DNA of 64,000 bases from a virus (IMGVR_UViG_3300005613_000042:1-64000); one strand, 5' to 3'; counted from the stretch's first letter, positions 3,637-47,704 are shown. The notes: generated by a model from the sequence alone, not told the origin. Translations and numbers: made by a program.

Positions 3637-4656
3637 ATGAAAAAAAAATATCTAACATATGATGATATTCAACTTGTACCAAACTATTCACAAATTGAAT
3701 CACGTCTATTGATAGACCTTTCTACTAGAGTAACTAAAAACTATTCTATATCAATCCCCATTATTGCAGCACCAATGGATACTGTGTGTGAGTTTGATAT
3801 GGCGTTTAAATTATACAATTTAGGTGGCGTTGGGTGTGTACATAGATTCATGTCCATTGATGAACAAACTGAGATTGTTAAAAAACTTCATAATAATGGT
3901 GTGAGTCCAATAATGGCTGCAGTTGGTGTAAAATCAGAAGATAGAACTAGAGCTAAATCACTATCAGATTCTGGAGTTCAAATTTTGGTAATAGATGTAG
4001 CACATGGCCACCATCAAAATGTAATTAACATGGTCAAATGGTGTAAAGATAATTTACCAACCCATGTTGATATTGTAGCCGGTAACATTGCTACTGCTTC
4101 CGCTGCTATTGATTTGTTAAACGCTGGTGCAGATGCTCTACGTGCTGGTATTGGGAACGGCTCATTATGTACTACTAGAATTAAAACTGGATTTGGAATT
4201 CCAAGTGTATCATGTATAGAAGATATATACAATTCAATGCTTAATGTATCAGAATCTATACCAATATGGGCAGATGGTGGTATCAGAAATAGTGGAGATA
4301 TTGCTAAAGCGTTAGCGATAGGTGCAGACTGTGTTATGCTTGGTAGTATATTGGCTGGTACTGAGGAAGCACCAGGGCAAATTATTGATAAAAATAATAA
4401 ATTATACAAACGATATCGTGGAAGTGCGAGTAGGGAAACTAAATTGACTCACGGCCAAGAGGATAGAAACATTGAAGGTGAATCTACAATAATTCCATAT
4501 AAGGGTGGAGTAAAATACATCATTAATGATATTATAGATGGAATTAGGTCAGCTTTATCTTATGCTGGCGCTAGTACCATCGATGAATTTTTACCCGAAT
4601 ATGTTATAATTACTAATGCTGGGCAGATTGAAGCTAGACCTCATTTGTTAGGTTAA
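3637..4656 (+). CDS. guaC: GMP reductase / IMP dehydrogenase-family oxidoreductase (no CBS insert, GuaC-like)
   Basis: Catalytic Cys loop GIGNGSLCTTR. ADGGIRNSGDIAKALAIGADCVMLGS phosphate-binding region. Length 339 aa. Confidence 0.7.
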   Translation: MKKKYLTYDDIQLVPNYSQIESRLLIDLSTRVTKNYSISIPIIAAPMDTVCEFDMAFKLYNLGGVGCVHRFMSIDEQTEIVKKLHNNGVSPIMAAVGVKSEDRTRAKSLSDSGVQILVIDVAHGHHQNVINMVKWCKDNLPTHVDIVAGNIATASAAIDLLNAGADALRAGIGNGSLCTTRIKTGFGIPSVSCIEDIYNSMLNVSESIPIWADGGIRNSGDIAKALAIGADCVMLGSILAGTEEAPGQIIDKNNKLYKRYRGSASRETKLTHGQEDRNIEGESTIIPYKGGVKYIINDIIDGIRSALSYAGASTIDEFLPEYVIITNAGQIEARPHLLG

Positions 4657-4729: not shown

Positions 4730-4802
4730 ACTCACGTAGCTCAATGGTTAGAGCAGATGGCTTATATCCATCAGGTTGCAGGTTCAAGTCCTGTCGTGAG
4801 TA
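4730..4802 (+). tRNA. tRNA-Ile (anticodon TAT, decodes AUA)
   Basis: Acceptor ACTCACG/CGTGAGT. D-arm GCTCAATGGTTAGAGC. Anticodon stem GATGG/CCATC with loop CTTATAT. T-arm GCAGGTTCAAGTCCTGT. Confidence 0.75.
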
Positions 4803-4818
4803 CCAAATCTCTAAAAAT

Positions 4819-4890
4819 GGTCAAGTGGCTGAGTGGCTAGGCGGAAGACTGCAAATCTTCTTTACATGGGTTCGAATCCTATCTTGACCT
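4819..4890 (+). tRNA. tRNA-Cys (anticodon GCA)
   Basis: Acceptor GGTCAAG/CTTGACC. Anticodon stem GAAGA/TCTTC with loop CTGCAAA. T-arm ATGGGTTCGAATCCTAT. D-stem has one non-canonical pair. Confidence 0.65.
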
Positions 4891-4937
4891 CATCGCCAAT
4901 GGTACGATATTGTTATTACAGTTTTTAAATCTATAAA

Positions 4938-5483
4938 ATGAAAGTTATATTTTTAGACCATGATGGTGTAATATGCCTCCAAAAAAACTGGGGGTCAAGA
5001 TTCAAAAAACAAAAAAATTGGGGTAGGTCTCCCGGTACAAGCTTTAAACAGGTTCCTGTTGAATATCGTTTTGATGACTTTGATAAAGATTGTGTAAATA
5101 TCCTGAATGAAATTCTCACAGAAACGGGTGCGGAAATTGTAACTTCATCTGATTGGAAACGACATGCAACTATTGATGAAATGTCTGAGTTTTTCAGACA
5201 CCAAGGTGTAATTAAATCACCTATTGATTTTACAAAAGATGGGTGGAGTGGTGGAGTTAATCATATCTTAGATACTTTACCATTTGATAAAAATCGAAAT
5301 GTTGAAATTACTCGTATTGCTGAAATTTTAGATTGGTTGCAACAACATTCCGAAGTAACTAAATGGGTAGCGGTGGATGATTTAGATATGAATGAGCTTG
5401 AACATTTTGTACATACTAGATTTCCACGAGAAGGAATTAAACAACTTGGTATCAAGAATAAGATTTTAAAGCATCTAATATGA
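4938..5483 (+). CDS. hypothetical protein (181 aa)
   Basis: ORF on the + strand. Confidence 0.5.
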   Translation: MKVIFLDHDGVICLQKNWGSRFKKQKNWGRSPGTSFKQVPVEYRFDDFDKDCVNILNEILTETGAEIVTSSDWKRHATIDEMSEFFRHQGVIKSPIDFTKDGWSGGVNHILDTLPFDKNRNVEITRIAEILDWLQQHSEVTKWVAVDDLDMNELEHFVHTRFPREGIKQLGIKNKILKHLI

Positions 5484-6010
5484 ATAAACTTCAGTTTTTA
5501 AAAGTATTCTTCTCACCATTTGAAAGGCCAAAATTAAAATGGTATTTTGGTAAAGTTGCTATAGGTACTCCATATTTTTACCCCCGTAAATGGGTTAACC
5601 ACCCTGAAAAGGTTGGTTATAAAACATCAGTTCCAAAAAAAATTGGATTTGATTTTGTTGGATTAGGGTATAAAACAAAATGGACAGGTACAGATTATCG
5701 ATTTGAATGGGCACCCCGCATTTCATTTGTTTTCTTCAAATGGCAGATTGCTGTAATATTAGAAGTACCATATCCAGAACACTATTGGAGTTGTTGGCTC
5801 ACTTATGAAAACCATACAGATAAAGATTTACTTGATGTTGAAGCACGAATTCAACTAGCAATGAAAATCAATCCTCAAATTTGGACTTTATATAACAAAG
5901 ATGGTGAAGAAGAAAGTGTATGGTATTGGCCTAAAATTTTGAAAGAAAAATATAAACATAAACTCCAAACACAATTTTTTGCTGTAGTAGACAACCACCA
6001 AACCCATTAA
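5480..6010 (+). CDS. hypothetical protein (176 aa), Trp/Tyr-rich
   Basis: ORF on the + strand overlapping the previous stop (ATGA). Confidence 0.5.
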   Translation: MNKLQFLKVFFSPFERPKLKWYFGKVAIGTPYFYPRKWVNHPEKVGYKTSVPKKIGFDFVGLGYKTKWTGTDYRFEWAPRISFVFFKWQIAVILEVPYPEHYWSCWLTYENHTDKDLLDVEARIQLAMKINPQIWTLYNKDGEEESVWYWPKILKEKYKHKLQTQFFAVVDNHQTH

Positions 6011-6033
6011 ATCAAAAAATTTTTGTTAATGTT

Positions 6034-6064
6034 TTGGTTGTTTGAAAGGTTTTTTGTAGCTTTA
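6034..6064 (+). promoter_or_regulatory. putative early promoter repeat (TTGGTTG ... TAGCTTTA)
   Basis: Member of the conserved intergenic repeat family; see finding. Confidence 0.45.
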
Positions 6065-6077
6065 AATTGTAAAAGAA

Positions 6078-6554
6078 ATGACAATGATTAACCCCACCAT
6101 CACCTTTTTAATTGGACCACCTGCCGCTGGTAAGTCCACTTGGACTGCTAAACATGGTAAAGGTTCAATCATCATTAGCCGTGATGATATCGTTGATAAA
6201 CTTCGCGGTAACATGAGCTATAATGATACCTTTTTGGATAGGGGATTTCAGAAAAAAGTTAATTCCGTATTGGCTTCTCACATCTCTAAATCCATCAAAA
6301 GTGGTAAGAATATCATTGTGGATATGACCAATATGAGTGTTAAAAGCCGTTCAAACATTCTCAGTAGAATTGGTGATGAATATCATCGTAAAGCTGTTGT
6401 TTTTAAGGTGGATAAACCCGAACTTATCCGTAGATTGAAACAACGAGAAATGGAGACTGGAAAACACATCCCCATGAAAGTGTTGGATAGTATGATTTCC
6501 CGATACGAACCCCCTACTTACGATGAATTTGATGAAATTGAAATTATTAAGTAA
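6078..6554 (+). CDS. pnk: polynucleotide 5'-kinase, kinase domain only (T4 Pnk N-terminal domain homologue, no HAD phosphatase domain)
   Basis: Aligns by eye to the T4 Pnk kinase domain: P-loop LIGPPAAGKSTW versus T4 TIGCPGSGKSTW. Also IIISRDD, VDMTNMSVKSR and PMKVLDSM match T4 NINRDD, ISDTNLNPERR and PIDVLRSM. Only 158 aa. Confidence 0.75.
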   Translation: MTMINPTITFLIGPPAAGKSTWTAKHGKGSIIISRDDIVDKLRGNMSYNDTFLDRGFQKKVNSVLASHISKSIKSGKNIIVDMTNMSVKSRSNILSRIGDEYHRKAVVFKVDKPELIRRLKQREMETGKHIPMKVLDSMISRYEPPTYDEFDEIEIIK

Positions 6555-6580
6555 AAATAATATTCGTTAATTGGTTGGTT

Positions 6581-6620
6581 TTTTGAATCATTGTTTGTAT
6601 CTTTACTTTGTAAGAAAAGT
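6581..6620 (+). promoter_or_regulatory. putative early promoter repeat (TTGGTTGGTT ... TATCTTTACTTTG)
   Basis: Member of the conserved intergenic repeat family. Confidence 0.45.
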
Positions 6621-6631
6621 TAACCATAACA

Positions 6632-7672
6632 ATGGATTTAAAGGATTTTATCAATTCAGCTGAACAAGGTAGGGTTTACATGCAAGAATCCCCTTGCGGC
6701 AACCTTGTTTTGTTTAATTATACCCCTGAAACTCAATTCAGTCGGGATTGGGATAGTATTACTTTAGCTTCTCGTGGTATTATCTTCGAAAAAGATTCAG
6801 GCTCTATTATCGCCAGACCTTTTGGTAAATTCTTCAATATGGAAGAACATGCCCAAGAAGGTATGGAACCCATTCCTAATGAAGAATTTGAAGTATATGA
6901 AAAAGTAGATGGTTCTTTGGGAATTATCTATTGGTACAACTTTCGCTGGAATGTAGCCACCAGAGGTTCGTTTTCAAGTGAACAAGCCATCAAGGCTGAA
7001 AAAATGTTGTATGACTTATATAATGTTGAACGATTAGACCCTCAATTCACTTACTTGGTGGAAATCATCTATCCTGAAAACCGGATTGTAGTTAATTATG
7101 GAGATGATGAAGCGTTGGTATTGCTAGCAGTAGTGGATACTGCAAGTGGTAGAGAAGATTCTATTGAAAATTGGAGACATATCGGATGGGGTATGGCTCT
7201 TAGTTATGATTTTAAAGATTTTAATGCTATTAAGGCATTAGATTGGAATAATAGTGAAGGCTTTGTAATTCGTTTCAAATCAGGTTTTCGAATGAAAATC
7301 AAGTTTGATAACTATGTTAAGCTTCATCGTATCATGACTGAAATGACTCCTAAGCGAATCTTCGAAGCTTGGGAAAGTGGTGTTCCTGTTTCAGAAAATT
7401 TAGACGGTGTTCCCGATGAAATCTTTGATGAAATCAAAGAGTGGGAATCCAAGTTCGAAAAAGAATATGGTTATATAAACTTAGAAGTTTATACTAACTT
7501 AATGTGTTGTATGAGTGGATTGGAAGATATTAATAGTAATAGAGAAACCCGTAAATTGTTTGCGGAACGTGCTCTAAAAACCGAATATCCCGGAATTATG
7601 TTTGGGATGTTGGATGGTAAAGATGTACACAACGCTATTTGTAAAGAAATTTACAAAAAGTTTTTCTACTAA
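6632..7672 (+). CDS. rnlA: RNA ligase 1 (T4 RnlA-like)
   Basis: Motif I EKVDGSLGI (KxDG). RGIIFEKDSGSIIARPFGKFFNMEE resembles T4 RGIMFE...RPMEKFFNLNE. Motif III VEIIYPENRIV. Motifs IV-V EGFVIRFKSGFRMKIKFDNY match T4 [20 protein letters not shown]. Confidence 0.8.
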   Translation: MDLKDFINSAEQGRVYMQESPCGNLVLFNYTPETQFSRDWDSITLASRGIIFEKDSGSIIARPFGKFFNMEEHAQEGMEPIPNEEFEVYEKVDGSLGIIYWYNFRWNVATRGSFSSEQAIKAEKMLYDLYNVERLDPQFTYLVEIIYPENRIVVNYGDDEALVLLAVVDTASGREDSIENWRHIGWGMALSYDFKDFNAIKALDWNNSEGFVIRFKSGFRMKIKFDNYVKLHRIMTEMTPKRIFEAWESGVPVSENLDGVPDEIFDEIKEWESKFEKEYGYINLEVYTNLMCCMSGLEDINSNRETRKLFAERALKTEYPGIMFGMLDGKDVHNAICKEIYKKFFY

Positions 7673-7675
7673 TCA

Positions 7676-7707
7676 CTTGGTTTCTTCAAAAACCGTTCGT
7701 ACCTTTG
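7676..7707 (+). promoter_or_regulatory. putative early promoter repeat (CTTGGTTTCTTCAAAAACCGTTCGTACCTTTG); the -7 box exactly matches TAnnTTTG
   Basis: About 40 nt identical to the copy at 8201-8241. Confidence 0.5.
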
Positions 7708-8187
7708 CTGCGTTCGAGGGTTACGAACAAAACACTAAAAACACTCACTAAGATGACAATCGCTCAACAGCTTAAAATCAAAGAATTTCCCTTTGAAATT
7801 AAGGATAGCCGGGGAAATGGGGTATACTTTGAAGGCTCCGATGGTTATTGGGCCAAGCGGGAATACGATGACCAAGGAAATCTGGTCTACTATGAAAACT
7901 CCACTGGTTATTGGGAAAAATCGGAATACGATGACCAAGGAAATGAAGTCTACTATGAAGACTCCACTGGTTATTGGGAAAAACGGGAATACAATAATCA
8001 AGGAAATCTGGTCTACTTTGAAAACTCCATTGGTTATTGGGAAAAATCGGAATACAATGACCAAGGAAATGAGGTCTACTGGGAAAACACCTATGGTGAT
8101 TGGGAAAAATCGGAATACGATAATCAAGGAAATGAAGTCTACTGGGAAGACTCCGATGGTACTATTGAAGACAATCGAGTGAGTTAA
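7705..8187 (+). CDS. tandem-repeat protein (about 5.5 copies of a 21-aa GYWEKSEYDDQGNEVYYEDST unit)
   Basis: The ORF is built almost entirely of 63-nt DNA repeats. The aromatic/acidic repeat is of unknown family (MORN/YD-like flavour). Confidence 0.55.
   Translation: MLRSRVTNKTLKTLTKMTIAQQLKIKEFPFEIKDSRGNGVYFEGSDGYWAKREYDDQGNLVYYENSTGYWEKSEYDDQGNEVYYEDSTGYWEKREYNNQGNLVYFENSIGYWEKSEYNDQGNEVYWENTYGDWEKSEYDNQGNEVYWEDSDGTIEDNRVS
7810..8157 (+). repeat. 63-bp tandem repeat array (about 5.5 copies) inside the CDS 7705..8187
   Basis: Units start near 7843, 7906, 7969, 8032 and 8095, with a partial unit before them. Confidence 0.7.
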
Positions 8188-8209
8188 CCGAAAAAATTGT
8201 TACTAATCA

Positions 8210-8241
8210 CTTGGTTTCTTCAAAAACCGTTCGTACCTTTA
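8210..8241 (+). promoter_or_regulatory. putative early promoter repeat (CTTGGTTTCTTCAAAAACCGTTCGTACCTTTA)
   Basis: Near-identical copy of the 7676-7707 element. Confidence 0.5.
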
Positions 8242-8248
8242 GGAAGTA

Positions 8249-8782
8249 ATGGTTAAAACAATGAAAGTAATGACGTTTGATTGGCTTGTAGATAGCGCTC
8301 CTCTACTAATTCAAGACAAACTAAATGACCTGAAAGGTCTTAGAGAGCGTCCTGATTATCATCCCGAGCCTAATACATTCGAGCATATTCGAATTGTAAC
8401 TGAAAGACTTATGCAGACTGGGGATATTGACCTTATTGTTGCTGGATTGATGCATGACATCTGTAAGTTAGATTGCGCCAAAATCAACCCCAAAACGGGC
8501 CATCCTACCAGTCCTGGTCATGATAAAGCTGCCGCTGATTTGGTAGGAAACCCGTTGGTTTTGGGTTGGATTGTTAGTTTAGGTGCCAACCCCCAAATGG
8601 TAGCCGATTTGTGTAAACAACACATGAGGTTTCACCAATTTGGTAATATGAAACAATCCAAACAACAAGCATTTCAGCAAATGCCTTGTTGGGATAAGTT
8701 AGTATTTTTGGGTGCAGCTGATAACATGCTCGAAGAATTTGATGTAAATGATGTGAGTAAATCTTGGAAATGGAACAAATAA
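8249..8782 (+). CDS. HD-domain phosphohydrolase-like protein
   Basis: H...HD pattern: EHIRIVTERL ... AGLMHDICK ... further His/Asp residues. Could be the 3'-end healing activity paired with Pnk/Rnl. Confidence 0.5.
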   Translation: MVKTMKVMTFDWLVDSAPLLIQDKLNDLKGLRERPDYHPEPNTFEHIRIVTERLMQTGDIDLIVAGLMHDICKLDCAKINPKTGHPTSPGHDKAAADLVGNPLVLGWIVSLGANPQMVADLCKQHMRFHQFGNMKQSKQQAFQQMPCWDKLVFLGAADNMLEEFDVNDVSKSWKWNK

Positions 8783-8805
8783 CCAAGAAAAAATTTCATC
8801 AAAAA

Positions 8806-8837
8806 CTTGGTTTCCTAAAAAACGTTTCTTAACTTTA
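8806..8837 (+). promoter_or_regulatory. putative early promoter repeat, degenerate copy (CTTGGTTTCCTAAAAAACGTTTCTTAACTTTA)
   Basis: Same architecture as the other repeats. Confidence 0.4.
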
Positions 8838-8854
8838 CAAAGTAAAGGAAAGCA

Positions 8855-9094
8855 ATGAGACCTACAGTACACAAAGGATGGATTGGTAAACGAGTGGAAC
8901 TTCATCTTGATGGTGAAATCGTTACTGGAGGACTTTTGGATAGTTTTGGTTGGAATGATGCTTCAAACCGATTTCAATTTTGGTTTATGAATGATTTCAC
9001 AGGAACCACTAGTTGTTTCGCGGTAGATGATATCGACACCGTTAAACGAATTCGCGTGAAGGAAATTGTATTTAATAAAATCATCAAAGATTGA
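8855..9094 (+). CDS. hypothetical protein (79 aa)
   Basis: ORF on the + strand with GGA-rich sequence upstream. Confidence 0.45.
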   Translation: MRPTVHKGWIGKRVELHLDGEIVTGGLLDSFGWNDASNRFQFWFMNDFTGTTSCFAVDDIDTVKRIRVKEIVFNKIIKD

Positions 9095-9095
9095 T

Positions 9096-9665
9096 ATGTT
9101 AGTCATTGGAGATGTACATGGAATGGTAGACCAATACAACAGGTTAATCAAAAATAGTAATAGGTCTATCCAAGTTGGTGATTTTGGGTTTTCCAAACAA
9201 CATGAATGGCACATGAAAAATTGTGACCCAACCAAACATCAAATTGTGTTTGGTAATCATGATGATTATGGATATCTAAAATCACCACATTCATTAGGTA
9301 ACTATTCACTAACACCTGAAGGTATTTTTACTATCCGTGGTGCGGAATCAATTGATAAACATCATCGTGTTGAAGGTGTAAGTTGGTGGCGTGATGAGGA
9401 ATTAAATTGGTCTGAAGCCAATCAAGTAGTTGAAAGTTATATGCAACTAAGACCTGAAATTGTAATCAGTCATGATTGTCCTGAAAGTGTGTGTATACGT
9501 TATTTTGGGTATCATGGTTCATTTACACGTAAATTATTGCAAAATCTATTTGAATTCCATCAGCCTATGCTTTGGATTTTTGGGCACCACCATAAAAGCA
9601 AGAATGACACTATTGATGGTACAAGATTTATTTGTCTAAATGAATTAGAAACTTTTGAAATTTAA
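9096..9665 (+). CDS. calcineurin-like metallophosphoesterase
   Basis: Motifs MLVIGDVHG, GDFGFS and VFGNHD. I chose the internal Met at 9096 to avoid overlapping the upstream gene; the ORF track offers 9066. Confidence 0.65.
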   Translation: MLVIGDVHGMVDQYNRLIKNSNRSIQVGDFGFSKQHEWHMKNCDPTKHQIVFGNHDDYGYLKSPHSLGNYSLTPEGIFTIRGAESIDKHHRVEGVSWWRDEELNWSEANQVVESYMQLRPEIVISHDCPESVCIRYFGYHGSFTRKLLQNLFEFHQPMLWIFGHHHKSKNDTIDGTRFICLNELETFEI

Positions 9666-9837
9666 TAACATGAATTGGAAGCGCATACTAGATACCGTAT
9701 CTTTGATTGGTATTTTTTTAATATTGATTACAATTTCCAAACAACTATATAATGTTAGTTTATATTTATGTATTGGATTTATAATCATATCAATGTTTGT
9801 ATTTTTATACCTAGTAAGTAGTGAACTGAAAAATTAA
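9655..9837 (+). CDS. small membrane protein (60 aa, two transmembrane segments)
   Basis: Hydrophobic ORF on the + strand. Confidence 0.4.
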   Translation: MKFNNMNWKRILDTVSLIGIFLILITISKQLYNVSLYLCIGFIIISMFVFLYLVSSELKN

Positions 9838-9848
9838 AACAATAAATT

Positions 9849-10148
9849 ATGTTTAAAGTATTAAAATTTAAATCTCTCAGAGAGATGCAAGAATTTTTTG
9901 TTGGAGATGATTCTGATAAAACAGAAGTATATCAACAATTAGTATCAGCCATAGAACATGGTAACAAAACCAATCAATTAATAGTTAATTTCGCAGAAGT
10001 AATTGGTGAAGATGGGAAAGACCAATATGTGTTTGAAATGAACCGAGAAGATTGGCCAGGTACACTTGAATCCGCCTTAGAATATTTCGAGTCAGTTGAA
10101 GAATATGAAATGTGTAAAATGGTAACAGAGTTAATGTCTGAAATTTGA
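9849..10148 (+). CDS. hypothetical acidic protein (99 aa)
   Basis: ORF on the + strand. Confidence 0.5.
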   Translation: MFKVLKFKSLREMQEFFVGDDSDKTEVYQQLVSAIEHGNKTNQLIVNFAEVIGEDGKDQYVFEMNREDWPGTLESALEYFESVEEYEMCKMVTELMSEI

Positions 10149-10394
10149 CAAGTAATTCTAAAATTTTTTAGTATATTTATACTAGAACGTTGAGTGATAC
10201 ACGCGGCAAAACTGGACTGGAGTTCGAATCTCCACATATCCACAATTCTTATTTAAAAATGGGTATGCATGGAATTGACAGGTTGTATGGCATATCATGA
10301 GTTCACATCGCTTAAATGGCGAATATTCATATGCAGTTGCTGCTTGAACAAGGTTCAACCAACAACTAACGGGATGACTACCGTTCAAGGTCAT

Positions 10395-10426
10395 ATGGGG
10401 TAGTTAACGCTACCCCATTTTTTTAC
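10395..10426 (+). terminator. rho-independent terminator
   Basis: atggggtag-ttaacg-ctaccccat hairpin (9-bp stem) followed by a 7-T run. Confidence 0.7.
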
Positions 10427-10462
10427 AAATTGTTTTAACCCTCTGAGAACCGTTTTAAGAGT

Positions 10463-42620: not shown

Positions 42621-43364
42621 ATGATTTCAATTTATAAATTGTTAGAGAATGTGGTATCTGAAGGTGTATATGACCCAGGTATTTTAAAAGCAATTTTTCT
42701 CGCAGGTGGTCCTGGTAGTGGTAAAAGTTATTCAGTAAACCAAATATTTGGAGTTGATAATATAATGAAGGGCACAAGTGCTCTTGGATTGAAAGTTGTC
42801 AATAGTGACCCTGCATTTGAACAACAGCTAAAAAAGGTTGGTGTTAGTCCAAAAAAATTAGGTCAAATGACTGATAAGATTTTCCAATACTACACTACAC
42901 GCCCAGATTCACCTCGTGCTAAAGCAAAACAAACGGTCAAAAAATTACGTGCTATGTATGAGTCTGGAAAATTGGGACTTATTATTGATGGTACTGGTAA
43001 AGATTATGCTAAAATTGAAAAGGACAAGAAAAGACTTGAAGAGTTGGGATATGATATCGCAATGGTATTTGTTAATACAAGTTTACAGGTAGCACTACAG
43101 AGAAATGCAAACCGTGATAGGTCATTACCTGAAGATTTGGTTGAGAAGGGATGGCTAGATGTTCAAAATAATATAGGAAAATTTCAATCTCTTTTTGGAA
43201 ATGATATGATAATAGTAGATAATAGCGAGGCCGGCGATTTCAACAAAATGCACGCAAAAAAGATTCGTGCGGCAGAAAGGTTTGTAAAATCACCAGTTAA
43301 AAACCCAATTGGTAAAAAGTGGATTGAAAATGAACTAAAATTAAGGAAAATTGATACAAAATGA
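42621..43364 (+). CDS. P-loop nucleoside/nucleotide kinase-like protein
   Basis: Walker A LAGGPGSGKSYS. LIIDGTG segment. Lies directly upstream of, and overlapping, the NMNAT-like domain gene. Confidence 0.5.
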   Translation: MISIYKLLENVVSEGVYDPGILKAIFLAGGPGSGKSYSVNQIFGVDNIMKGTSALGLKVVNSDPAFEQQLKKVGVSPKKLGQMTDKIFQYYTTRPDSPRAKAKQTVKKLRAMYESGKLGLIIDGTGKDYAKIEKDKKRLEELGYDIAMVFVNTSLQVALQRNANRDRSLPEDLVEKGWLDVQNNIGKFQSLFGNDMIIVDNSEAGDFNKMHAKKIRAAERFVKSPVKNPIGKKWIENELKLRKIDTK

Positions 43365-45661
43365 ACTTAGGCGAATATATAGCTTATCAATTATTAGAAG
43401 TAGAGTTATCTGGTGATATAAAGCACATTGTTGCATTGTATCCTGGTAGATTCCAACCAATGGGCACTCATCATGCAAAAACATATAAATGGGTTGAATC
43501 TAAATTCGGAGATGCGTGGGTTGTTACAAGTGATAAAGTTCAATTACCAAAGTCGCCTCTAAACTTCAATGAAAAGAAAAAAATTATCAACAAACACGGA
43601 ATCAGTAAAGTAGCTAAGGTAAAAAATCCATACCAAGCAGTAGAAGTATTGAGTAAATATGACCCTAAAACAACTGCGGTAGTATTCATAGTTGGTAAGA
43701 AAGACCAGGAACGCCTTGGTGGTAAATTCTTTCGACCGTGGCGCGGCGTGGCTGAAGTTGGATACCGAGATGGTGCTTATACAATGATTGCACCTCATAT
43801 ATCCTTAAACATACCTGGTGTGGGAGAAATGTCGGGCACAACGATTAGACAAGCTCTTTCTCAATCCCCTGATGGACCTGAATCTAAGAAATTATTCAAG
43901 GGTATCATGGATTGGTATGATGCTGGTATCCATAAAATGATATCTGGCAAACTAATGGTGAACGATATAATTGAAAAGTTTATAAATAACTCAGACTTTA
44001 CAGATACATTACATGAAGCCTCCGTTACTAGTATTTCTCAAGCTGGCGATGTAGATGATGGTCCACAAACTTGGTATAAAAATCAATCTTCTTATAAGAG
44101 TGCCACAAAATCTATAGCCGACCGACTTGGTATGAAAGTTCTTAATTATCTAAGTGGTGATGGTGATTTTGAAGCTGAGTTAACTAGATATCAACATATA
44201 ACTAGGTCACCCAGTACATTTCCAGCCGGCGTACAAGGTAAGACAACTACAATTAACCAAGATGACTTATCTACAAAGACGGCATATAAAGTTTGGAAAC
44301 GATATATTCAAAACATAGTTAGGTCGGTTGGTATGCAATTTCTGGATTATTTAGGAGCTGAATACTCTATAGATGTAGATGAACCAAATACAGAATTAGA
44401 TGATTTATTAGGTGAGGGTCTTTTAGTAGAGACTCCAGATGAGGATGTTGGTAAAGTTCAATGTATGGTGTGTGGGTGTATGATGAAACAAATTCAATAC
44501 AGACATTTAAAATATAGTCATAATGGTATGACTATGCCGGAATATAAAGATAAATACCCAAATGCACCACTTATATTAGACTCCGCTAAAAACACAGGTA
44601 ATAAAAATCCGATGGCTAATCCCATTGTTAGGGAAACGCATAAAAAAAGTGTAACCACAGATGAATACCGAGAAAACCAAAGAATTGGTTCTACTGGCAG
44701 AATCGCAAGCGATGAAACTAAGAAAAAAATGTCTGAAAATAATGCGATGCATTCTTCTGAAAACAGAAAAAAGGTATCGGATGGTGTTCGAAAGGCATAT
44801 GAAAAAGACCCATTATTGAGAGAAAAACGATCGGTGACTGGTAAGAAATATGGGTTTGGTAATAGTAAAACTCAAGATAAAATAGCTGAAGTTAGAGGTA
44901 GTAAACGGGGTGATGAGCGTGATGAATTTGAAAGATATCAAGAATTGGTTAGAATACTTTCAAATAAAAATTATCAAACATACTTCAAAGAAATACCAAA
45001 TGCTAAAAAGCGGAGTAGAGATTATCATTTGGACCACAAATTTTCAATATCAGAAGGATTTAGAAGAAATATTCCAGTCGAAATAATTTCTCATTATTCA
45101 AACTTTGAAATCATGCATGGTCGATTGAATGAGAGTAAGGGAACTAAATCATCAATATCATTACGAGAATTAATTTTTGATATAGAATCATCCAATCATC
45201 CAATTGGACCCCGTAATATCAAGCAATTACTCACTTGCGGTGGGGCTTACGGACACATGCGACATCCGTTCGATGACAACAATCTAACTTTTGGTGATAT
45301 AAAGAACATTATTAGATTATCTCTTCAAGGTAATCTAAGTATGGAAAAGGTAACTACTGAAAAATGTATATCTGGAGATAGTATATTATTTCTTGAAACG
45401 TTGGGGCCTACTAAAATTAAGGATGTAGTTGATGGTGATTTGGATGATGCAGTGTTAGCGTATAATAGTCAAGATGATAAAAATGAATATTTGCCCATAG
45501 TTCATAAGTTTAATAATGGGGAGGTAGATGAGTGGATTGTGATAGAGTTAGAAGATGGAAAGGAAATAAAAGTTACTCCGAATCATAAGATTTTTGTAAA
45601 GAATAAAGGATTTGTGAGAGCTGATGAATTGACAGAATATGATGAGCTTAAGATAGTTTAG
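43361..45661 (+). CDS. N-terminal half of a fractured multidomain gene: NMNAT-like HxGH nucleotidyltransferase domain + C2H2-like Zn finger + NUMOD3/HNH endonuclease module + ligase motif-I region (N-extein) + split-intein N-fragment (last 98 aa)
   Basis: GRFQPMGTHH ... SGTTIRQAL (archaeal-NMNAT-like). CMVCGC ... HNGMTMPEYKDKYP. NUMOD3-like GNKNPM repeats. HNH DYHLDHKFSISEG...N. The ORF ends ...VTTEK|CISGDSILFLE...KVTPNHKIFV...ELKIV* (intein blocks A and B). Confidence 0.6.
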   Translation: MNLGEYIAYQLLEVELSGDIKHIVALYPGRFQPMGTHHAKTYKWVESKFGDAWVVTSDKVQLPKSPLNFNEKKKIINKHGISKVAKVKNPYQAVEVLSKYDPKTTAVVFIVGKKDQERLGGKFFRPWRGVAEVGYRDGAYTMIAPHISLNIPGVGEMSGTTIRQALSQSPDGPESKKLFKGIMDWYDAGIHKMISGKLMVNDIIEKFINNSDFTDTLHEASVTSISQAGDVDDGPQTWYKNQSSYKSATKSIADRLGMKVLNYLSGDGDFEAELTRYQHITRSPSTFPAGVQGKTTTINQDDLSTKTAYKVWKRYIQNIVRSVGMQFLDYLGAEYSIDVDEPNTELDDLLGEGLLVETPDEDVGKVQCMVCGCMMKQIQYRHLKYSHNGMTMPEYKDKYPNAPLILDSAKNTGNKNPMANPIVRETHKKSVTTDEYRENQRIGSTGRIASDETKKKMSENNAMHSSENRKKVSDGVRKAYEKDPLLREKRSVTGKKYGFGNSKTQDKIAEVRGSKRGDERDEFERYQELVRILSNKNYQTYFKEIPNAKKRSRDYHLDHKFSISEGFRRNIPVEIISHYSNFEIMHGRLNESKGTKSSISLRELIFDIESSNHPIGPRNIKQLLTCGGAYGHMRHPFDDNNLTFGDIKNIIRLSLQGNLSMEKVTTEKCISGDSILFLETLGPTKIKDVVDGDLDDAVLAYNSQDDKNEYLPIVHKFNNGEVDEWIVIELEDGKEIKVTPNHKIFVKNKGFVRADELTEYDELKIV
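45365..45658 (+). mobile_element. split intein, N-terminal fragment (IntN, 98 aa)
   Basis: Block A CISGDSIL and block B TPNHKIF. The ORF stops right after the Hint N-domain. Confidence 0.65.
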
Positions 45662-45686
45662 AGTACCATCTGTTTTTTCAATAAAT

Positions 45687-46535
45687 TTGATATTTATAAG
45701 TATGATGAAAAAATGTAACTATTGTGGGGTGATTACAAACAGTATTAGTTCCCATATGCGAGATTGTTCTGATTATATATATTGGAGAGATAAAACATTT
45801 ACTAGAGAATTTCTCTATCAAGAATATGTAGAGAAAGGGAAATCAGCTATTCAAATTGCGAATGAAAATGGGTTTAGGTCGTCTAGTGCAATAAATAGAA
45901 TGCTTAAAAAGCATAATATTAACATAAGAGGAATTAGTACTTCACATAATATACCTTTGTATAAAAAAAGAATAGAACAAACTAATGTAAATAGATTCGG
46001 TGCACCGAATCCATTATGCAAAGGAACCGTTCCTTTTAAAAAAAGAAATAAAACAGTTATGGAACGGTATGGGGTAGATAATGTCAGGAAGCATCCAGAT
46101 GTTATTGCCAAGATAAAAAAGTCTTTAGCCCAGTGGAGAAATGAAAATGGACATTCTACGTTGGGATTGACACATTCATCGGAAACTAAAAATAAAATGA
46201 GAAAATCTGCTATATATAATATACAGTCTTGCGTTGGACAATTATCTCCATCTTACAATCCATCATCAATCCCCATCCTTGAATCAAAAGCAAGGGAACT
46301 TGGCATAACCGACCTTCAACATGCGGAAAATGGCGGAGAATATCACATTAAAGAACTTGGATATTGGGCGGATGGATACAGCAAAGAGAAGAATATAGTT
46401 ATTGAGTACGATGAAAAACATCATTTTGATATAGATGGAAATTTGAAAGATAAAGATAAAACGCGTCAGAGGGAAATAGAAAATTACTTGGGGTGTGAGT
46501 TCATTAGAATTAAAGCAATGGAGACTTCTTCTTGA
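45687..46535 (+). CDS. free-standing homing endonuclease-like gene lying between the intein halves
   Basis: Sits in a different frame from the flanking intein ORFs. NUMOD-like helices. C-terminal ELGYWADGYSKEKNIVIEYDEKHHFDIDGN (Vsr/EDxHD-like nuclease motif). Preceded by a TTGATATTTATAAG motif. Confidence 0.55.
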   Translation: MIFISMMKKCNYCGVITNSISSHMRDCSDYIYWRDKTFTREFLYQEYVEKGKSAIQIANENGFRSSSAINRMLKKHNINIRGISTSHNIPLYKKRIEQTNVNRFGAPNPLCKGTVPFKKRNKTVMERYGVDNVRKHPDVIAKIKKSLAQWRNENGHSTLGLTHSSETKNKMRKSAIYNIQSCVGQLSPSYNPSSIPILESKARELGITDLQHAENGGEYHIKELGYWADGYSKEKNIVIEYDEKHHFDIDGNLKDKDKTRQREIENYLGCEFIRIKAMETSS

Positions 46536-46636
46536 AAATAAAATCAATAAAAAGGGTTAAAAATGTAGAAACTTGCTATGATATACAAGTTCCTGATAGA
46601 CATTGCTATTATGCAAATGGAATATTAGTACATAAT
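46532..46636 (+). mobile_element. split intein, C-terminal fragment (IntC, 35 aa)
   Basis: Canonical ...GILVHN followed by Thr. Same reading frame as the IntN ORF. Confidence 0.65.
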
Positions 46637-47704
46637 ACGGATGGACAAAATTTATTCATCACTTGGGCTAATGGAAAATTGAGAGCCGCTCGTAACACAA
46701 GTGATTTGAAAAGGGGTGGTATGGATGTTAAGGCTGTTGCAGCTAAGTTTGCAGGTCGTGGTAATATTGAGAAAGCATTCAATTCAGCTATGAATGATTT
46801 ATCAAAAGCTATTGGTTCACTAACAGACGCTCAAAAAGAGAAGATATTCGCTAATGGCGGTAATTGGGTAAATATGGAAATTATATATCCACCATCAGCT
46901 AATGTTATTTCATATGACGCTCCATATTTACAATTCCACAATGTATTGAGTTATTCAGGTTCCACTCCAACTGGTGAGATAACAGATGGTGCCAGAATAT
47001 TAGCCGGTATGATAAAACAAGTCAATGCGAATTTGCAAAAAACCTTTTCAATAATTGGACCGAACGTATTGACGTTAAAGGGTAGTACTGATTTTTCCGA
47101 AAAACAAGATTACTTCATAAACAAAGTTAAAAAATTACAATCTGAATTTAAGTTAAGTGATACCGCAACATTATCTGAATATCATCAAGCATGGTGGGAA
47201 CGGTTTGTGGAAAAGATGTTTCCAAACATTGATAATAGGACTAAAATGGAATTAGTTACACGATGGGCTTTTGGTGACAAGAGTTTCCGTTTAAATAAAA
47301 AAAATATCACAGATGAAACCCTCTTAGCAAAAGCTATAAAATTCGATAAGCAAAATCATCAAGACCAAATCAAGAAAAATATGTTCCCATTTGAAACACT
47401 TATTTTTGAACTTGGTGTAGAGGTCTTGAAAAATGTGGAGGGTTTCTTAGCTGCAAATCCAAATAAGACTATTCAAGGTATACGAAATGCAGTTGCAAAA
47501 TCAATTAGAGATGTTCGTAAAGGTGGTGATTTGAAAAAACTAAAAAGAATAGACCAACAGTTAGCTAAAATAAAGGCTATTGGTGGTTGGAATGCGATAG
47601 TTCCATCTGAGGGAATTGTTATGGTATACAGGGGTAACACCTACAAATTGACTGGAGCCTTCGCGCCCATAAATCAAATAACCGGGTTGATGAATTTTGA
47701 TTAA
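46532..47704 (+). CDS. C-terminal half of the fractured gene: split-intein C-fragment (35 aa) + ligase-like nucleotidyltransferase C-extein
   Basis: Start MKIKSIKRVKNVETCYDIQVPDRHCYYANGILVHN|TDGQN (intein blocks F and G, +1 Thr). The predicted splice product has ...EKTDGQNLF (KxDGxN motif I). A motif-III-like NMEIIYPPSANVISY and C-terminal EGIVMVYRGNTYKLTG (motif IV/V-like) follow. Confidence 0.6.
   Translation: MKIKSIKRVKNVETCYDIQVPDRHCYYANGILVHNTDGQNLFITWANGKLRAARNTSDLKRGGMDVKAVAAKFAGRGNIEKAFNSAMNDLSKAIGSLTDAQKEKIFANGGNWVNMEIIYPPSANVISYDAPYLQFHNVLSYSGSTPTGEITDGARILAGMIKQVNANLQKTFSIIGPNVLTLKGSTDFSEKQDYFINKVKKLQSEFKLSDTATLSEYHQAWWERFVEKMFPNIDNRTKMELVTRWAFGDKSFRLNKKNITDETLLAKAIKFDKQNHQDQIKKNMFPFETLIFELGVEVLKNVEGFLAANPNKTIQGIRNAVAKSIRDVRKGGDLKKLKRIDQQLAKIKAIGGWNAIVPSEGIVMVYRGNTYKLTGAFAPINQITGLMNFD

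What the first reader, a model, noticed from the sequence alone, without database searches (positions are those of the whole stretch)
6011..9665. T4-style RNA repair cassette with a 'split' Pnk: kinase-only Pnk + Rnl1 ligase, with candidate 3'-healing enzymes encoded separately (HD hydrolase, calcineurin-like phosphoesterase)
The 158-aa kinase aligns closely to the T4 Pnk kinase domain but lacks the HAD phosphatase domain. An Rnl1-type ligase follows. An HD-domain gene and a calcineurin-like metallophosphoesterase gene lie 1.6 kb and 2.4 kb downstream, and each of the five genes has its own copy of a conserved promoter-like repeat. A complete healing-and-sealing pathway against host anticodon nucleases (PrrC/RloC/colicin-like) therefore seems to be encoded as separate modules. 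HD-type 3'-phosphatases are known from phage RM378 Pnk and calcineurin-type ones from bacterial Pnkp. A second, intein-containing ligase-like gene at 43-47 kb suggests further RNA-end metabolism.
Basis: partly seen in the sequence, partly recalled or inferred. Interest (0 to 1): 0.6.

Follow-up and report, generated by a model that had tools for sequence, protein, structure and literature searches.

The report
Phage tRNA-repair genes in separate pieces
A T4-like phage carries a small swappable gene block (an RNA 5'-kinase, an RNA ligase and an HD phosphoesterase) that probably re-joins tRNAs cut by host defence nucleases; this is a new example of a kind of system already predicted in large phages.

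Summary
The genes are real and the domain calls are right. There is a 158-aa Pnk-type kinase with no phosphatase domain (6078-6554) and an Rnl1-family ligase (6632-7672). There is also an HD protein (8249-8782) and a calcineurin-like phosphoesterase (9096-9665). Five copies of a promoter-like repeat, TTGGTT-N17-TAnCTTTR, lie in this region.

The HD protein is the best-supported 3'-end healer. Its homologues sit beside Rnl1 or an AAA_33 kinase in 11 of 16 non-identical loci. Related HD domains are fused to Pnk-type kinases, as in phage RM378 Pnk and Campylobacter phage proteins, and to CCA-adding enzymes and RtcB.

The metallophosphoesterase is a conserved backbone gene, and nothing found here links it specifically to RNA repair.

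Kinase, ligase, a YD-repeat gene and HD form a 2.7-kb block. It is absent or differently filled in close relatives, and the junctions fall in the promoter repeats.

Unfused heal-and-seal toolkits of this kind are already described for jumbo phages (Iyer et al. 2021). This is a new member of a known kind, of modest interest.

The parts
4938..5483 (+). Stand-alone HAD_SAK_2 phosphatase (181 aa). It has DHDGV motif I and a DD motif IV. It is a candidate 3'/2'-monophosphatase for linear phosphate ends.
5480..6010 (+). ORF176, function unknown. Its start overlaps the HAD stop (ATGA), and its pairing with HAD_SAK_2 is conserved.
   Evidence: No Pfam, PHROG or NCBIfam match. It is 88% identical to the L021 copy and 66% identical to the ORF next to HAD in L022-24.
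6034..6064 (+). Promoter-like repeat copy 1, upstream of the kinase
6078..6554 (+). Kinase-only Pnk-family P-loop kinase (158 aa), the predicted polynucleotide 5'-OH kinase
   Evidence: AAA_33, 1.5e-23. phrog_6931 (the kinase half of HD-kinase fusions), 3e-28, and phrog_505 polynucleotide kinase, 6e-17. PDB: Pnkp1 4xrp 6e-10 and CthPnkp 3e-7; in the CthPnkp alignment the query motifs isrDD and klRG line up with issD and fcRG. TIGR04075 bacter_Pnkp, 3e-9. RM378 Pnk, 33% identity, 6e-14.
6575..6605 (+). Promoter-like repeat copy 2, upstream of Rnl1
6632..7672 (+). Rnl1-family ATP-dependent RNA ligase (346 aa)
   Evidence: PF09511, 1.3e-18; phrog_562, 4e-66; T4 Rnl1 2c5u, 5e-14. Motif I (KvDGS), motif III (vEiiyPeNriv), motif IV (EGfV) and motif V (KiKfd) align to T4. 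TIGR02308, 1.2e-21.
7677..7707 (+). Promoter-like repeat copy 3, upstream of the YD-repeat gene
   Evidence: It is identical to copy 4 over about 45 nt.
7753..8187 (+). YD/RHS-like repeat protein built from 21-aa (63-nt) tandem repeats. It is probably an unrelated passenger gene of the cassette.
   Evidence: 63-nt direct repeats. RHS_core, 1.9e-5. Absent from relatives L124-126, which carry an unrelated ORF154 here.
8211..8241 (+). Promoter-like repeat copy 4, upstream of HD
8249..8782 (+). Stand-alone HD phosphoesterase resembling the HD domain of CCA-adding enzymes and of RM378 Pnk. The likely start is 8270. It is the best-supported 2',3'-cyclic phosphodiesterase / 3'-phosphatase of the pathway.
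8807..8837 (+). Promoter-like repeat copy 5, upstream of ORF79 and the phosphoesterase
8855..9094 (+). ORF79, function unknown, coupled to the phosphoesterase. A backbone gene.
   Evidence: 99% identical to the L021 copy. The pairing with the phosphoesterase is conserved in L021 and L124-126.
9096..9665 (+). Calcineurin-like metallophosphoesterase (189 aa). A backbone gene with no support found here for a role in RNA repair.
   Evidence: PF00149, 1.7e-7; phrog_1649, 2e-27. The GDVHG, GDFG, GNHD and GHHH motifs are visible in the translation. No PDB sequence match at E <= 1 other than a spurious one. Present in L021, which lacks the cassette.

Best explanation
The block 6011-8850 is an accessory tRNA 'heal-and-seal' cassette. 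It lies in a hypervariable, promoter-punctuated slot of a T4-like myovirus.

Inferred mechanism, from the biochemistry of the families:
- The stand-alone HD phosphoesterase (8249-8782) opens and removes the cyclic or 3' phosphate, as the HD domains of E. coli Cca and RM378 Pnk do.
- The 158-aa kinase (6078-6554) phosphorylates the 5'-OH.
- Rnl1 (6632-7672) seals the break.

In effect this is an RM378-type HD-kinase Pnk split into two genes, with the ligase between them. The upstream HAD_SAK_2 protein (4938-5483) is probably a second, auxiliary phosphatase for linear 3'/2' phosphates. It belongs to the conserved backbone and not to the cassette.

Shown here: the domain identities, intact catalytic motifs, the indel structure, the neighbourhood statistics and the fusions.
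Inferred: substrates, the order of steps and the biological target.
For: (1) Domain identities and intact active-site motifs of the kinase, Rnl1, HD and HAD.

(2) HD is linked to the other two far more than HAD is. Of 16 non-identical HD-anchored loci, 12 have an AAA_33 kinase and 9 an Rnl1 within 8 kb. Within 1 kb the counts are 7 and 7, and 11 of 16 have one or the other. For 64 HAD_SAK_2-anchored loci the counts are 7 and 5 within 8 kb, and 2 and 0 within 1 kb. Fisher p = 1e-6 (kinase) and 6e-5 (Rnl1).

(3) Tight operons exist. L032 has HD-kinase-Rnl1 contiguous. In L035-37 and L043, HD and the kinase overlap or are adjacent. In L030, L031, L033 and L034, HD and Rnl1 overlap.

(4) In L025, a relative with Rnl1 69%, HD 79% and MPE 86% identical, the kinase near HD and Rnl1 is a different, non-orthologous AAA_33 subfamily. 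The three functions persist even though one component was replaced.

(5) Fusions of related HD domains. Campylobacter phage CP20 and F352 proteins are HD + AAA_33, and F352 has an Rnl1 1 kb downstream. RM378 Pnk is HD + kinase with the shared motifs YH.E.N..H / LHD..K / PGH. It is the one PNKP with a demonstrated HD-borne 3'-phosphatase (PMC1997131). Among 53 long proteins carrying this HD family, 10 have a CCA-adding/poly(A) polymerase head domain, 4 an AAA_33 kinase and 1 an RtcB.

(6) The kinase, Rnl1, YD gene and HD are missing together from the 89-90% identical contig L021, and the junction falls in the promoter repeat.

(7) The E. coli Cca HD domain has 2',3'-cyclic phosphodiesterase and phosphatase activities (Yakunin 2004, cited). 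Stand-alone kinases, SAK-HAD, HD-like and calcineurin-like phosphatases accompanying ATP-grasp RNA ligases are described for jumbo phages (PMC7824862).
Against: - The closest relatives that keep the kinase and Rnl1 (L124-126; kinase 96% and Rnl1 93% identical) have no HD in this slot. They carry an unrelated ORF154 instead, so HD is dispensable there or encoded elsewhere.
- Orthologues of this particular kinase at 54-62% identity (L128, L135-137) have no Rnl1-family ligase or HD within 8 kb. L135 does carry a PF09414 RNA_ligase gene about 7.7 kb away.
- None of the 16 non-identical Rnl1-anchored loci has this HD within 6 kb.
- The slot also holds plainly unrelated genes: the YD-repeat gene here, and a DNA methylase and a pentapeptide protein in relatives. 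Adjacency within this window alone is therefore weak evidence.
- Neighbourhood counts are not phylogenetically independent.
- No biochemical data exist for any of these proteins.
- The HD-to-RM378 profile match is weak (E = 0.02, probability 2%) and rests mainly on shared motifs.
Confidence: 0.6

Rival explanations
1. The HAD_SAK_2 protein (4938-5483) is the cognate 3'-phosphatase of the kinase-Rnl1 pair, making a T4 Pnkp-like chemistry split into two genes. On this reading HD does something else, such as tRNA 3'-CCA end maintenance or nucleotide hydrolysis.
For: HAD is present and adjacent (one gene away) in every close relative that has the kinase and Rnl1, including L124-127, which lack HD. 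Its catalytic motifs are intact. Pfam names the family for RNA-repair proteins. PMC7824862 calls the stand-alone SAK-HAD the typical linear phosphatase that goes with phage RNA ligases. T4 Pnkp's HAD domain alone can heal cyclic ends (PMC3592404, listed).
Confidence: 0.22
2. The calcineurin-like phosphoesterase (9096-9665) is the 3'-healing enzyme, as in bacterial Pnkp or lambda phosphatase.
For: It is an intact metallophosphoesterase. It lies 1.4 kb downstream of Rnl1. An 86%-identical copy lies 1.2 kb upstream of Rnl1 in L025, and a copy lies about 5.6 kb upstream in L026/27. CthPnkp and lambda phosphatase have 2',3'-cyclic phosphodiesterase activity (PMC2190708). PMC7824862 mentions calcineurin-like phosphatases in a few jumbo-phage RNA-repair systems.
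Against: It is a backbone gene, translationally coupled to ORF79, and is kept in L021 without the cassette. It has no sequence match to CthPnkp or lambda phosphatase in the PDB at E <= 1. Its presence near Rnl1 in relatives is explained by shared gene order. The only weak family hint is the YfcE type.
Confidence: 0.06
3. There is no pathway. The genes are independent 'moron'-type accessory genes that happen to share a hypervariable slot. The kinase acts on small molecules or proteins, and Rnl1 has another role, such as the tail-fibre attachment function of T4 gp63.
For: The slot holds unrelated genes and its content differs between close relatives. Each gene has its own promoter. Kinase orthologues elsewhere stand alone. 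phrog_562 is annotated with the second gp63 function.
Against: The kinase's nearest characterised relatives are all polynucleotide kinases. Linkage and fusion of HD, kinase and Rnl1 recur across divergent lineages. The Rnl1 catalytic motifs are intact.
Confidence: 0.1

Closest known systems
Phage RM378 polynucleotide kinase/3'-phosphatase (Rm378p110, 361 aa; Blondal et al. 2005, J Biol Chem 280:5188) together with the RM378 Rnl1-type ligase
   Same: A Pnk-type kinase, 33% identical at E = 6e-14. An HD phosphoesterase with the same motif set, YH.E.N..H / LHD..K / PGH. An Rnl1-family ligase in the same genome. The host phage is a T4-like myovirus.
   Different: In RM378 the HD (N-terminal) and the kinase (C-terminal) are one polypeptide, and the ligase lies about 6.5 kb away. 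Here HD and the kinase are separate genes, each with its own promoter, and they flank the ligase. HD sequence similarity is low (profile E = 0.02).
Campylobacter phage HD-kinase proteins (phrog_6931; CP20 'polyA polymerase' QAU04792.1, F352_081 'polynucleotide 5' kinase and 3' phosphatase')
   Same: This is the best PHROG match of the window kinase (3e-28). The architecture is HD + AAA_33. The YH.EPN...LHDI.K motifs align to the window HD family. F352 has an Rnl1 1 kb downstream.
   Different: These proteins are fused and not split. They have not been characterised biochemically.
T4 Pnkp (PseT) + Rnl1 (gp63) tRNA repair against PrrC
   Same: The same logic: a 5'-kinase, a 3'-end phosphoesterase and an Rnl1 ligase. 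The Rnl1 catalytic motifs are conserved. The kinase fold is homologous over the whole domain (1ly1, residues 8-141 against 4-141).
   Different: T4 Pnkp carries a fused DxDxT (HAD) phosphatase. The kinase here has none and is only distantly similar to T4's (E = 2.7e-3). The likely phosphoesterase is an HD protein. The HAD nearby belongs to another family, HAD_SAK_2.
HD domain of E. coli multifunctional CCA-adding/repair enzyme (Cca; Yakunin et al. 2004)
   Different: There is no nucleotidyltransferase head domain here, and none was detected anywhere in the 64-kb window by tblastn with the fused relatives.
Distributed RNA-repair toolkits of jumbo phages (Iyer et al. 2021, PMC7824862; Burroughs & Aravind 2016, NAR 44:8525; the latter could not be read here)
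   Same: Stand-alone polynucleotide kinases, the stand-alone 'Swiss-army-knife' HAD, and occasional HD-like or calcineurin-like phosphatases accompany Rnl1/Rnl2 ligases and phage tRNA genes.
   Different: That work gives genome-level phyletic patterns. This locus adds a concrete cassette structure, evidence of promoter-flanked exchange, and a quantified HD-Rnl1-kinase linkage.

Membership tests
T4-type bifunctional Pnkp | N-terminal P-loop polynucleotide kinase domain | tested here: met
   AAA_33 covers residues 9-146. The PDB hits are all Pnk(p) kinases: 4xrp 6e-10, CthPnkp 3e-7, mammalian PNKP 9e-4, T4 1ly1 2.7e-3. TIGR04075, 3e-9.
T4-type bifunctional Pnkp | Fused C-terminal DxDxT (HAD) 3'-phosphatase domain | tested here: not met
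   The protein is 158 aa and is entirely kinase domain.
RM378-type HD-kinase Pnk | Kinase domain homologous to RM378 Pnk | tested here: met
   BLASTP: 33% identity over 141 aa, E = 6e-14. My iterated kinase HMM hits Rm378p110 at 1e-24.
RM378-type HD-kinase Pnk | HD phosphohydrolase domain of the Cca/poly(A)-polymerase-like type | tested here: met
   It is present as a separate protein. The motifs YHPEPN..H, MHDICK and PGHD are shared with RM378 (YHLEGN..H, LHDSGK, PGHEG). NF008137 HD region, 6e-5. BFVD neighbours are HD-kinase fusions.
RM378-type HD-kinase Pnk | HD and kinase in one polypeptide | tested here: not met
   They are separate ORFs 1.7 kb apart, each with its own promoter-like repeat.
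RM378-type HD-kinase Pnk | 5'-kinase and 3'-phosphatase activity on polynucleotides | not testable with these tools
   This needs enzyme assays.
Rnl1 (T4 RnlA family RNA ligase) | Nucleotidyltransferase motifs I, III, IV and V, with the catalytic lysine | tested here: met
   KvDGS, vEiiyPeN, EGfV and KiKfd align to the T4 Rnl1 motifs. The T4 R54, K75 and F77 equivalents (asRGiifE, GKFFN) are also present.
Rnl1 (T4 RnlA family RNA ligase) | Family profile match above the curated threshold | tested here: met
   Pfam PF09511 scores 68.1 bits against a cut-off of 28.3. The stricter NCBIfam equivalog TIGR02308 scores 77 bits, below its cut-off of 242. It is therefore a family member but not a T4 orthologue-level match.
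Rnl1 (T4 RnlA family RNA ligase) | C-terminal tRNA-specificity domain | tested here: inconclusive
   The alignment to T4 Rnl1 runs to query residue 293 and T4 residue 311 only. The last 50 or so residues are not aligned.
HAD_SAK_2 (PF18143) | Profile match and HAD catalytic motifs (DxD, S/T, DD) | tested here: met
   83.6 bits against a cut-off of 27.5. D7, D9, S71, D147 and D148 are invariant. HAD fold at pLDDT 93.8.
HAD_SAK_2 (PF18143) | Physical linkage to RNA ligase or kinase genes | tested here: inconclusive
   It is linked in this lineage (window, L124-127). Across 64 non-identical loci, only 7 have a kinase and 5 an Rnl1 within 8 kb. Genome-level co-occurrence was not testable here.
Bacterial Pnkp / lambda-phosphatase-type metallophosphoesterase healing domain | Calcineurin-like fold with metal-binding motifs | tested here: met
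   PF00149 scores 32.3 bits against a cut-off of 21.5. The GDVHG, GDFG, GNHD and GHHH motifs are present.
Bacterial Pnkp / lambda-phosphatase-type metallophosphoesterase healing domain | Specific similarity to CthPnkp or lambda phosphatase, or linkage to the kinase and ligase beyond shared gene order | tested here: not met
   No PDB sequence match at E <= 1. It is kept in L021 without the cassette.
HD superfamily | H...HD...H...H...D metal ligands and the all-helical HD fold | tested here: met

The most novel reading that the evidence does not exclude
The stand-alone Cca-like HD protein is a dedicated RNA 2',3'-cyclic-phosphate/3'-phosphate healing enzyme. With Rnl1 and interchangeable, even non-orthologous, small P-loop kinases it forms a freely recombining three-gene module. 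The module moves between phage genomes as promoter-flanked cassettes. In this phage the same HD may also serve a second repair pathway. That pathway would be built from a kinase plus a protein joining a HIGH-type nucleotidyltransferase to a ligase-like domain, interrupted by a split intein at 42.6-47.7 kb. Homologues of that protein in other phages carry this HD domain internally.
Probability: 0.3. Interest if true: 0.5.

Novelty: new member of a known kind. Interest (0 to 1): 0.3.

Why it matters
Phage tRNA repair is the classic counter-measure to host anticodon nucleases. So far only the T4 (HAD-type) and RM378 (HD-type, fused) healing enzymes have biochemical support. This locus and its relatives give a clean set of small, separately encoded proteins (kinase, HD, HAD_SAK_2 and Rnl1) with which to test which phosphoesterase heals which kind of RNA end. 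The natural variants make that test sharper: some relatives lack HD, one has a non-orthologous kinase, and one lacks the whole cassette. The locus also shows how such counter-defence genes are exchanged as promoter-flanked cassettes in a hypervariable slot, next to tRNA genes and a phage tmRNA gene. The concept itself is already published, so the gain is incremental.

Tried and rejected
- DNA search of the 4.8-kb region against 50,697 phage records found nothing beyond a 77-nt ligase match, so there is no annotated close relative.
- PDB sequence searches gave nothing useful for HAD, the HD family profile, the phosphoesterase or the spliced C-terminal 'ligase-like' domain.
- A first tblastn of the window proteins against 20 Rnl1-anchored loci showed almost no partner genes. 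Kinases appeared only after building an iterated kinase HMM. That HMM is broad: it covers AAA_33 in general, including a distinct subfamily of about 130 aa, so 'kinase' in the neighbourhood counts does not mean an orthologue of the window kinase.
- The HAD structure comparison could not tell a Pnkp-like phosphatase from a generic one.
- I considered reading the promoter repeat as an E. coli-type sigma-70 promoter. The consensus scan does not call any of the five sites. The TAnnTTTR box with TTG about 20 nt upstream fits the Bacteroidota -33/-7 type better (my own knowledge). The host remains unproven, and the permuted tmRNA gives no clear pointer.
- Burroughs & Aravind 2016, the source of the SAK name, could not be read here.
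- ORF176, ORF79 and the YD-repeat protein gave no informative family hits.
- An early NCBIfam call failed because I gave a wrong frame.

Full report
WHAT IS THERE

The window comes from a T4-like myovirus of about 34% G+C. It encodes a baseplate wedge protein, an SbcC-like protein, a large terminase, a portal and a major head protein. It has no close relative among deposited phage genomes.

The region of the finding lies in a run of + strand genes:
- tRNA-Ile(UAU) and tRNA-Cys, 4730-4891
- a stand-alone HAD_SAK_2 phosphatase, 4938-5483
- a conserved unknown ORF176, 5480-6010, whose start overlaps the HAD stop
- a 158-aa kinase, 6078-6554
- an Rnl1 ligase, 6632-7672
- a YD/RHS-like repeat protein, 7753-8187
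- an HD protein, 8249-8782
- ORF79, 8855-9094
- a metallophosphoesterase, 9096-9665
- a few small ORFs
- a permuted tmRNA gene, 10152-10438

CHECKING THE OBSERVATION

The domain calls hold.

- Kinase. It is all AAA_33 domain. Its characterised relatives are polynucleotide kinases: Capnocytophaga Pnkp1 at 6e-10, Clostridium thermocellum Pnkp at 3e-7, mammalian PNKP, and T4 Pnk at only 2.7e-3. It also matches TIGR04075 bacterial Pnkp and phrog_505 polynucleotide kinase. 'Closely aligned to T4 Pnk' is therefore too strong.
- Ligase. It passes the Pfam Rnl1 threshold. It aligns to T4 Rnl1 with motifs I, III, IV and V and the upstream R/K/F residues in place.
- Phosphoesterase. It has all the calcineurin-type motifs.
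- Promoter-like repeat. TTGGTT-N17-TAnCTTTR is real. Five + strand copies all lie between 6034 and 8837, against 0.78 matches expected in the whole window. They precede the kinase, Rnl1, the YD gene, HD and ORF79. The phosphoesterase has none of its own and starts one base after the ORF79 stop.
- The sigma-70 consensus scan does not pick up these sites. The TAnnTTTR box fits the Bacteroidota -7 element better. That reading rests on my own knowledge, and the host is not proven.

A HAD_SAK_2 gene (PF18143, E = 2e-23) lies about 600 bp upstream of the kinase, and its HAD catalytic motifs are intact. So the phage does encode a HAD phosphatase near its kinase-only Pnk. It belongs to a different HAD family from the T4 Pnkp domain, and its predicted structure is a generic HAD.

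THE BLOCK IS A VARIABLE CASSETTE

- L021, a contig 89-90% identical in DNA, runs HAD-ORF175-ORF79-phosphoesterase with nothing in between. It aligns to window 4891-6078 and then to 8781-9873, and the junction falls inside the promoter repeat.
- L124-127, whose kinase is 96% and Rnl1 93% identical, carry a DNA methylase between the kinase and Rnl1. An unrelated ORF154 takes the place of the YD and HD genes. A pentapeptide-repeat gene stands in place of the tRNAs. Again the junctions fall at the repeats.
- HAD, ORF176, ORF79 and the phosphoesterase are therefore backbone genes. The kinase, Rnl1, YD gene and HD are exchangeable inserts, each with its own promoter copy.

WHICH PHOSPHOESTERASE GOES WITH THE KINASE AND LIGASE

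I collected loci anchored on each protein and scanned them with iterated HMMs.

| Anchor | Non-identical loci | Kinase <= 8 kb | Rnl1 <= 8 kb | Kinase <= 1 kb | Rnl1 <= 1 kb |
|---|---|---|---|---|---|
| HD | 16 | 12 | 9 | 7 | 7 |
| HAD_SAK_2 | 64 | 7 | 5 | 2 | 0 |

- Fisher p is 1e-6 for the kinase and 6e-5 for Rnl1. These counts are not phylogenetically independent.
- 11 of the 16 HD-anchored loci have a kinase or an Rnl1 within 1 kb.
- Several loci are tight operons. L032 has HD-kinase-Rnl1 contiguous, and others have overlapping HD-kinase or HD-Rnl1 pairs.
- In L025 the kinase beside HD and Rnl1 belongs to a different AAA_33 subfamily. The three functions persist despite the replacement of one part.

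Fusions of related HD domains point the same way.
- The kinase's best PHROG hit is the C-terminal half of 343-346-aa HD-kinase proteins of Campylobacter phages. One of these has an Rnl1 1 kb downstream.
- RM378 Pnk is the only PNKP with a demonstrated HD-borne 3'-phosphatase (PMC1997131). It is HD + kinase. Its kinase is 33% identical to the window's, and its HD shares the YH.E.N..H / LHD..K / PGH motifs.
- A profile search of 1.8 billion representatives found 1203 relatives of the HD family. Among 53 long ones, 10 carry a CCA-adding/poly(A) polymerase head, 4 an AAA_33 kinase, 3 a cytidylyltransferase-like domain and 1 an RtcB.
- NCBIfam's best match is the HD region of the E. coli 'multifunctional CCA addition/repair protein'. 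That HD domain is reported to have 2',3'-cyclic phosphodiesterase, 2'-nucleotidase and phosphatase activities (Yakunin 2004, cited).
- The BFVD structural neighbours are HD-kinase and 'poly(A) polymerase' phage proteins.

By contrast, the metallophosphoesterase shows nothing beyond shared gene order. It has no PDB-level similarity to CthPnkp or lambda phosphatase.

COUNTER-EVIDENCE

- HD is absent from the slot in the closest relatives that keep the kinase and Rnl1.
- Orthologues of this kinase at 54-62% identity have no Rnl1-family ligase or HD within 8 kb. One of them, L135, has a PF09414 RNA_ligase gene about 7.7 kb away.
- None of the 16 non-identical Rnl1-anchored loci has this HD within 6 kb, although 11 have a small kinase.
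- The slot also contains unrelated genes.
- The pathway is therefore modular and facultative, and HAD_SAK_2 may substitute for or complement HD.

MOST LIKELY MECHANISM (inferred)

1. [quoted passage not shown]
2. HD opens and removes the cyclic or 3' phosphate.
3. HAD_SAK_2 possibly clears linear phosphates.
4. The kinase adds the 5' phosphate.
5. Rnl1 seals the break.

I put this at about 0.6. The main rival is HAD as the true partner, at about 0.2.

COMPARISON WITH WHAT IS KNOWN

Functionally this is T4-style healing and sealing. By homology it is closest to the RM378 and Campylobacter-phage HD-kinase Pnk, but unfused.

Iyer et al. 2021 (PMC7824862) already describe jumbo-phage RNA-repair sets. 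These have stand-alone kinases and the stand-alone 'Swiss-army-knife' HAD. They also have occasional HD-like and calcineurin-like phosphatases alongside Rnl1/Rnl2 and tRNA genes. This locus is therefore a new member of a known kind. What this analysis adds is the cassette structure, the quantified HD linkage and the downgrading of the phosphoesterase.

- Genes at 42621-47704 encode a Zeta/AAA_33-type kinase. Its stop overlaps the start of a 766-aa protein with a HIGH-type (cytidylyltransferase-like) nucleotidyltransferase domain and an HNH-like insert.
- That protein ends in an N-intein.
- A free-standing homing-endonuclease gene follows. The next ORF begins with a C-intein.
- The spliced junction EK|TDGQ is contiguous in intein-less homologues.
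- Those homologues are giant multidomain proteins. One, of 1930 aa, runs nucleotidyltransferase, kinase (55% identical to the window's first kinase), HD of this family, a CCA-adding domain and then this C-terminal domain.
- The C-terminal domain has Rnl1-like motif I and motif III strings. However, it has no Pfam, PHROG or PDB match, and hhalign to Rnl1 gives only 19% probability. 'Ligase-like' therefore remains unproven.

Noticed in passing
window 43361-47704 (ORFs 43361-45661, 45687-46535, 46532-47704): A gene is broken by a split intein. The first ORF ends in an N-intein (CISGDS...). A free-standing HNH/homing-endonuclease gene follows. The third ORF starts with a C-intein (...GILVHN|TDGQ). 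The spliced junction EK|TDGQ is contiguous in the intein-less homologues P0388, P0415 and P0418. The interrupted domain has Rnl1-like motif I and III strings but no database match.
   Followed up: partly
proteins P0415 (1930 aa), P0388, P0418, P0404, P0304: Giant multidomain 'Swiss-army-knife'-like proteins exist elsewhere. One runs cytidylyltransferase-like domain, DUF5661, AAA_33 kinase (55% identical to the window kinase), HD of this family, a CCA-adding head and the C-terminal domain of the window's 45-47 kb gene. Another (P0304) fuses this HD to RtcB. The window encodes the same domains as separate genes.
   Followed up: partly
window 42621-43364: A second P-loop kinase (Zeta_toxin/AAA_33, 247 aa; phrog_12810, 2e-36). 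Its stop overlaps the start of the nucleotidyltransferase/ligase-like gene. This may be a second RNA-end or NAD-related module.
   Followed up: partly
window 10152-10438: A phage-encoded permuted (two-piece) tmRNA gene with tag peptide GEYSYAVAA. ARAGORN calls it, and Rfam tmRNA_permuted scores 56 bits against a cut-off of 47. A strong terminator hairpin follows at 10395-10418. It lies in the same stretch as five tRNA genes and the repair genes.
   Followed up: partly
window 5480-6010: ORF176 is better conserved than the HAD next to it (66% against 52% identity to L022-24). It is always adjacent to or overlapping a HAD_SAK_2 gene, in either order. It matches no Pfam, PHROG, NCBIfam or PDB entry. 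It may be a partner of the HAD phosphatase.
   Followed up: partly
window 7753-8187 and 7650-7706 / 8184-8240: A YD/RHS-like protein made of 21-aa (63-nt) tandem repeats sits between Rnl1 and HD. Its promoter-like repeat is identical to the one in front of HD over about 45 nt, which suggests a recent insertion or duplication by recombination between promoter copies.
   Followed up: partly
loci L124-L127 (relatives), slot equivalent to window 4900-8850: The same slot in close relatives holds a pentapeptide-repeat protein, an N6/N4 DNA methylase between the kinase and Rnl1, an unrelated ORF154 and a T4 Y07B-like ORF. It looks like a hotspot for counter-defence-type accessory genes exchanged at the promoter repeats.
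   Followed up: partly
L026/L027 7272-7682: A cREC_REC domain protein (PF20274) lies between Rnl1 and the HD gene. PMC7824862 proposes this domain as a cyclic-phosphate-processing enzyme linked to RNA ligases.
   Followed up: no
window 3637-4656: A GMP reductase/IMPDH-family gene lies just upstream of the tRNA-HAD region. A homologue recurs within a few kb of Rnl1, kinase or HAD genes in many related loci (L008-12, L026, L044-49, L124-127).
   Followed up: no
window 59321-60883: A large HNH homing endonuclease (phrog_3339, 6e-97) lies directly after the major head protein gene (57599-59257).
   Followed up: no
window 4730-4805: tRNA-Ile with anticodon UAU (reads AUA) lies next to tRNA-Cys, immediately upstream of the HAD gene. 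In relatives L124/L125 a pentapeptide-repeat gene occupies this position.
   Followed up: no
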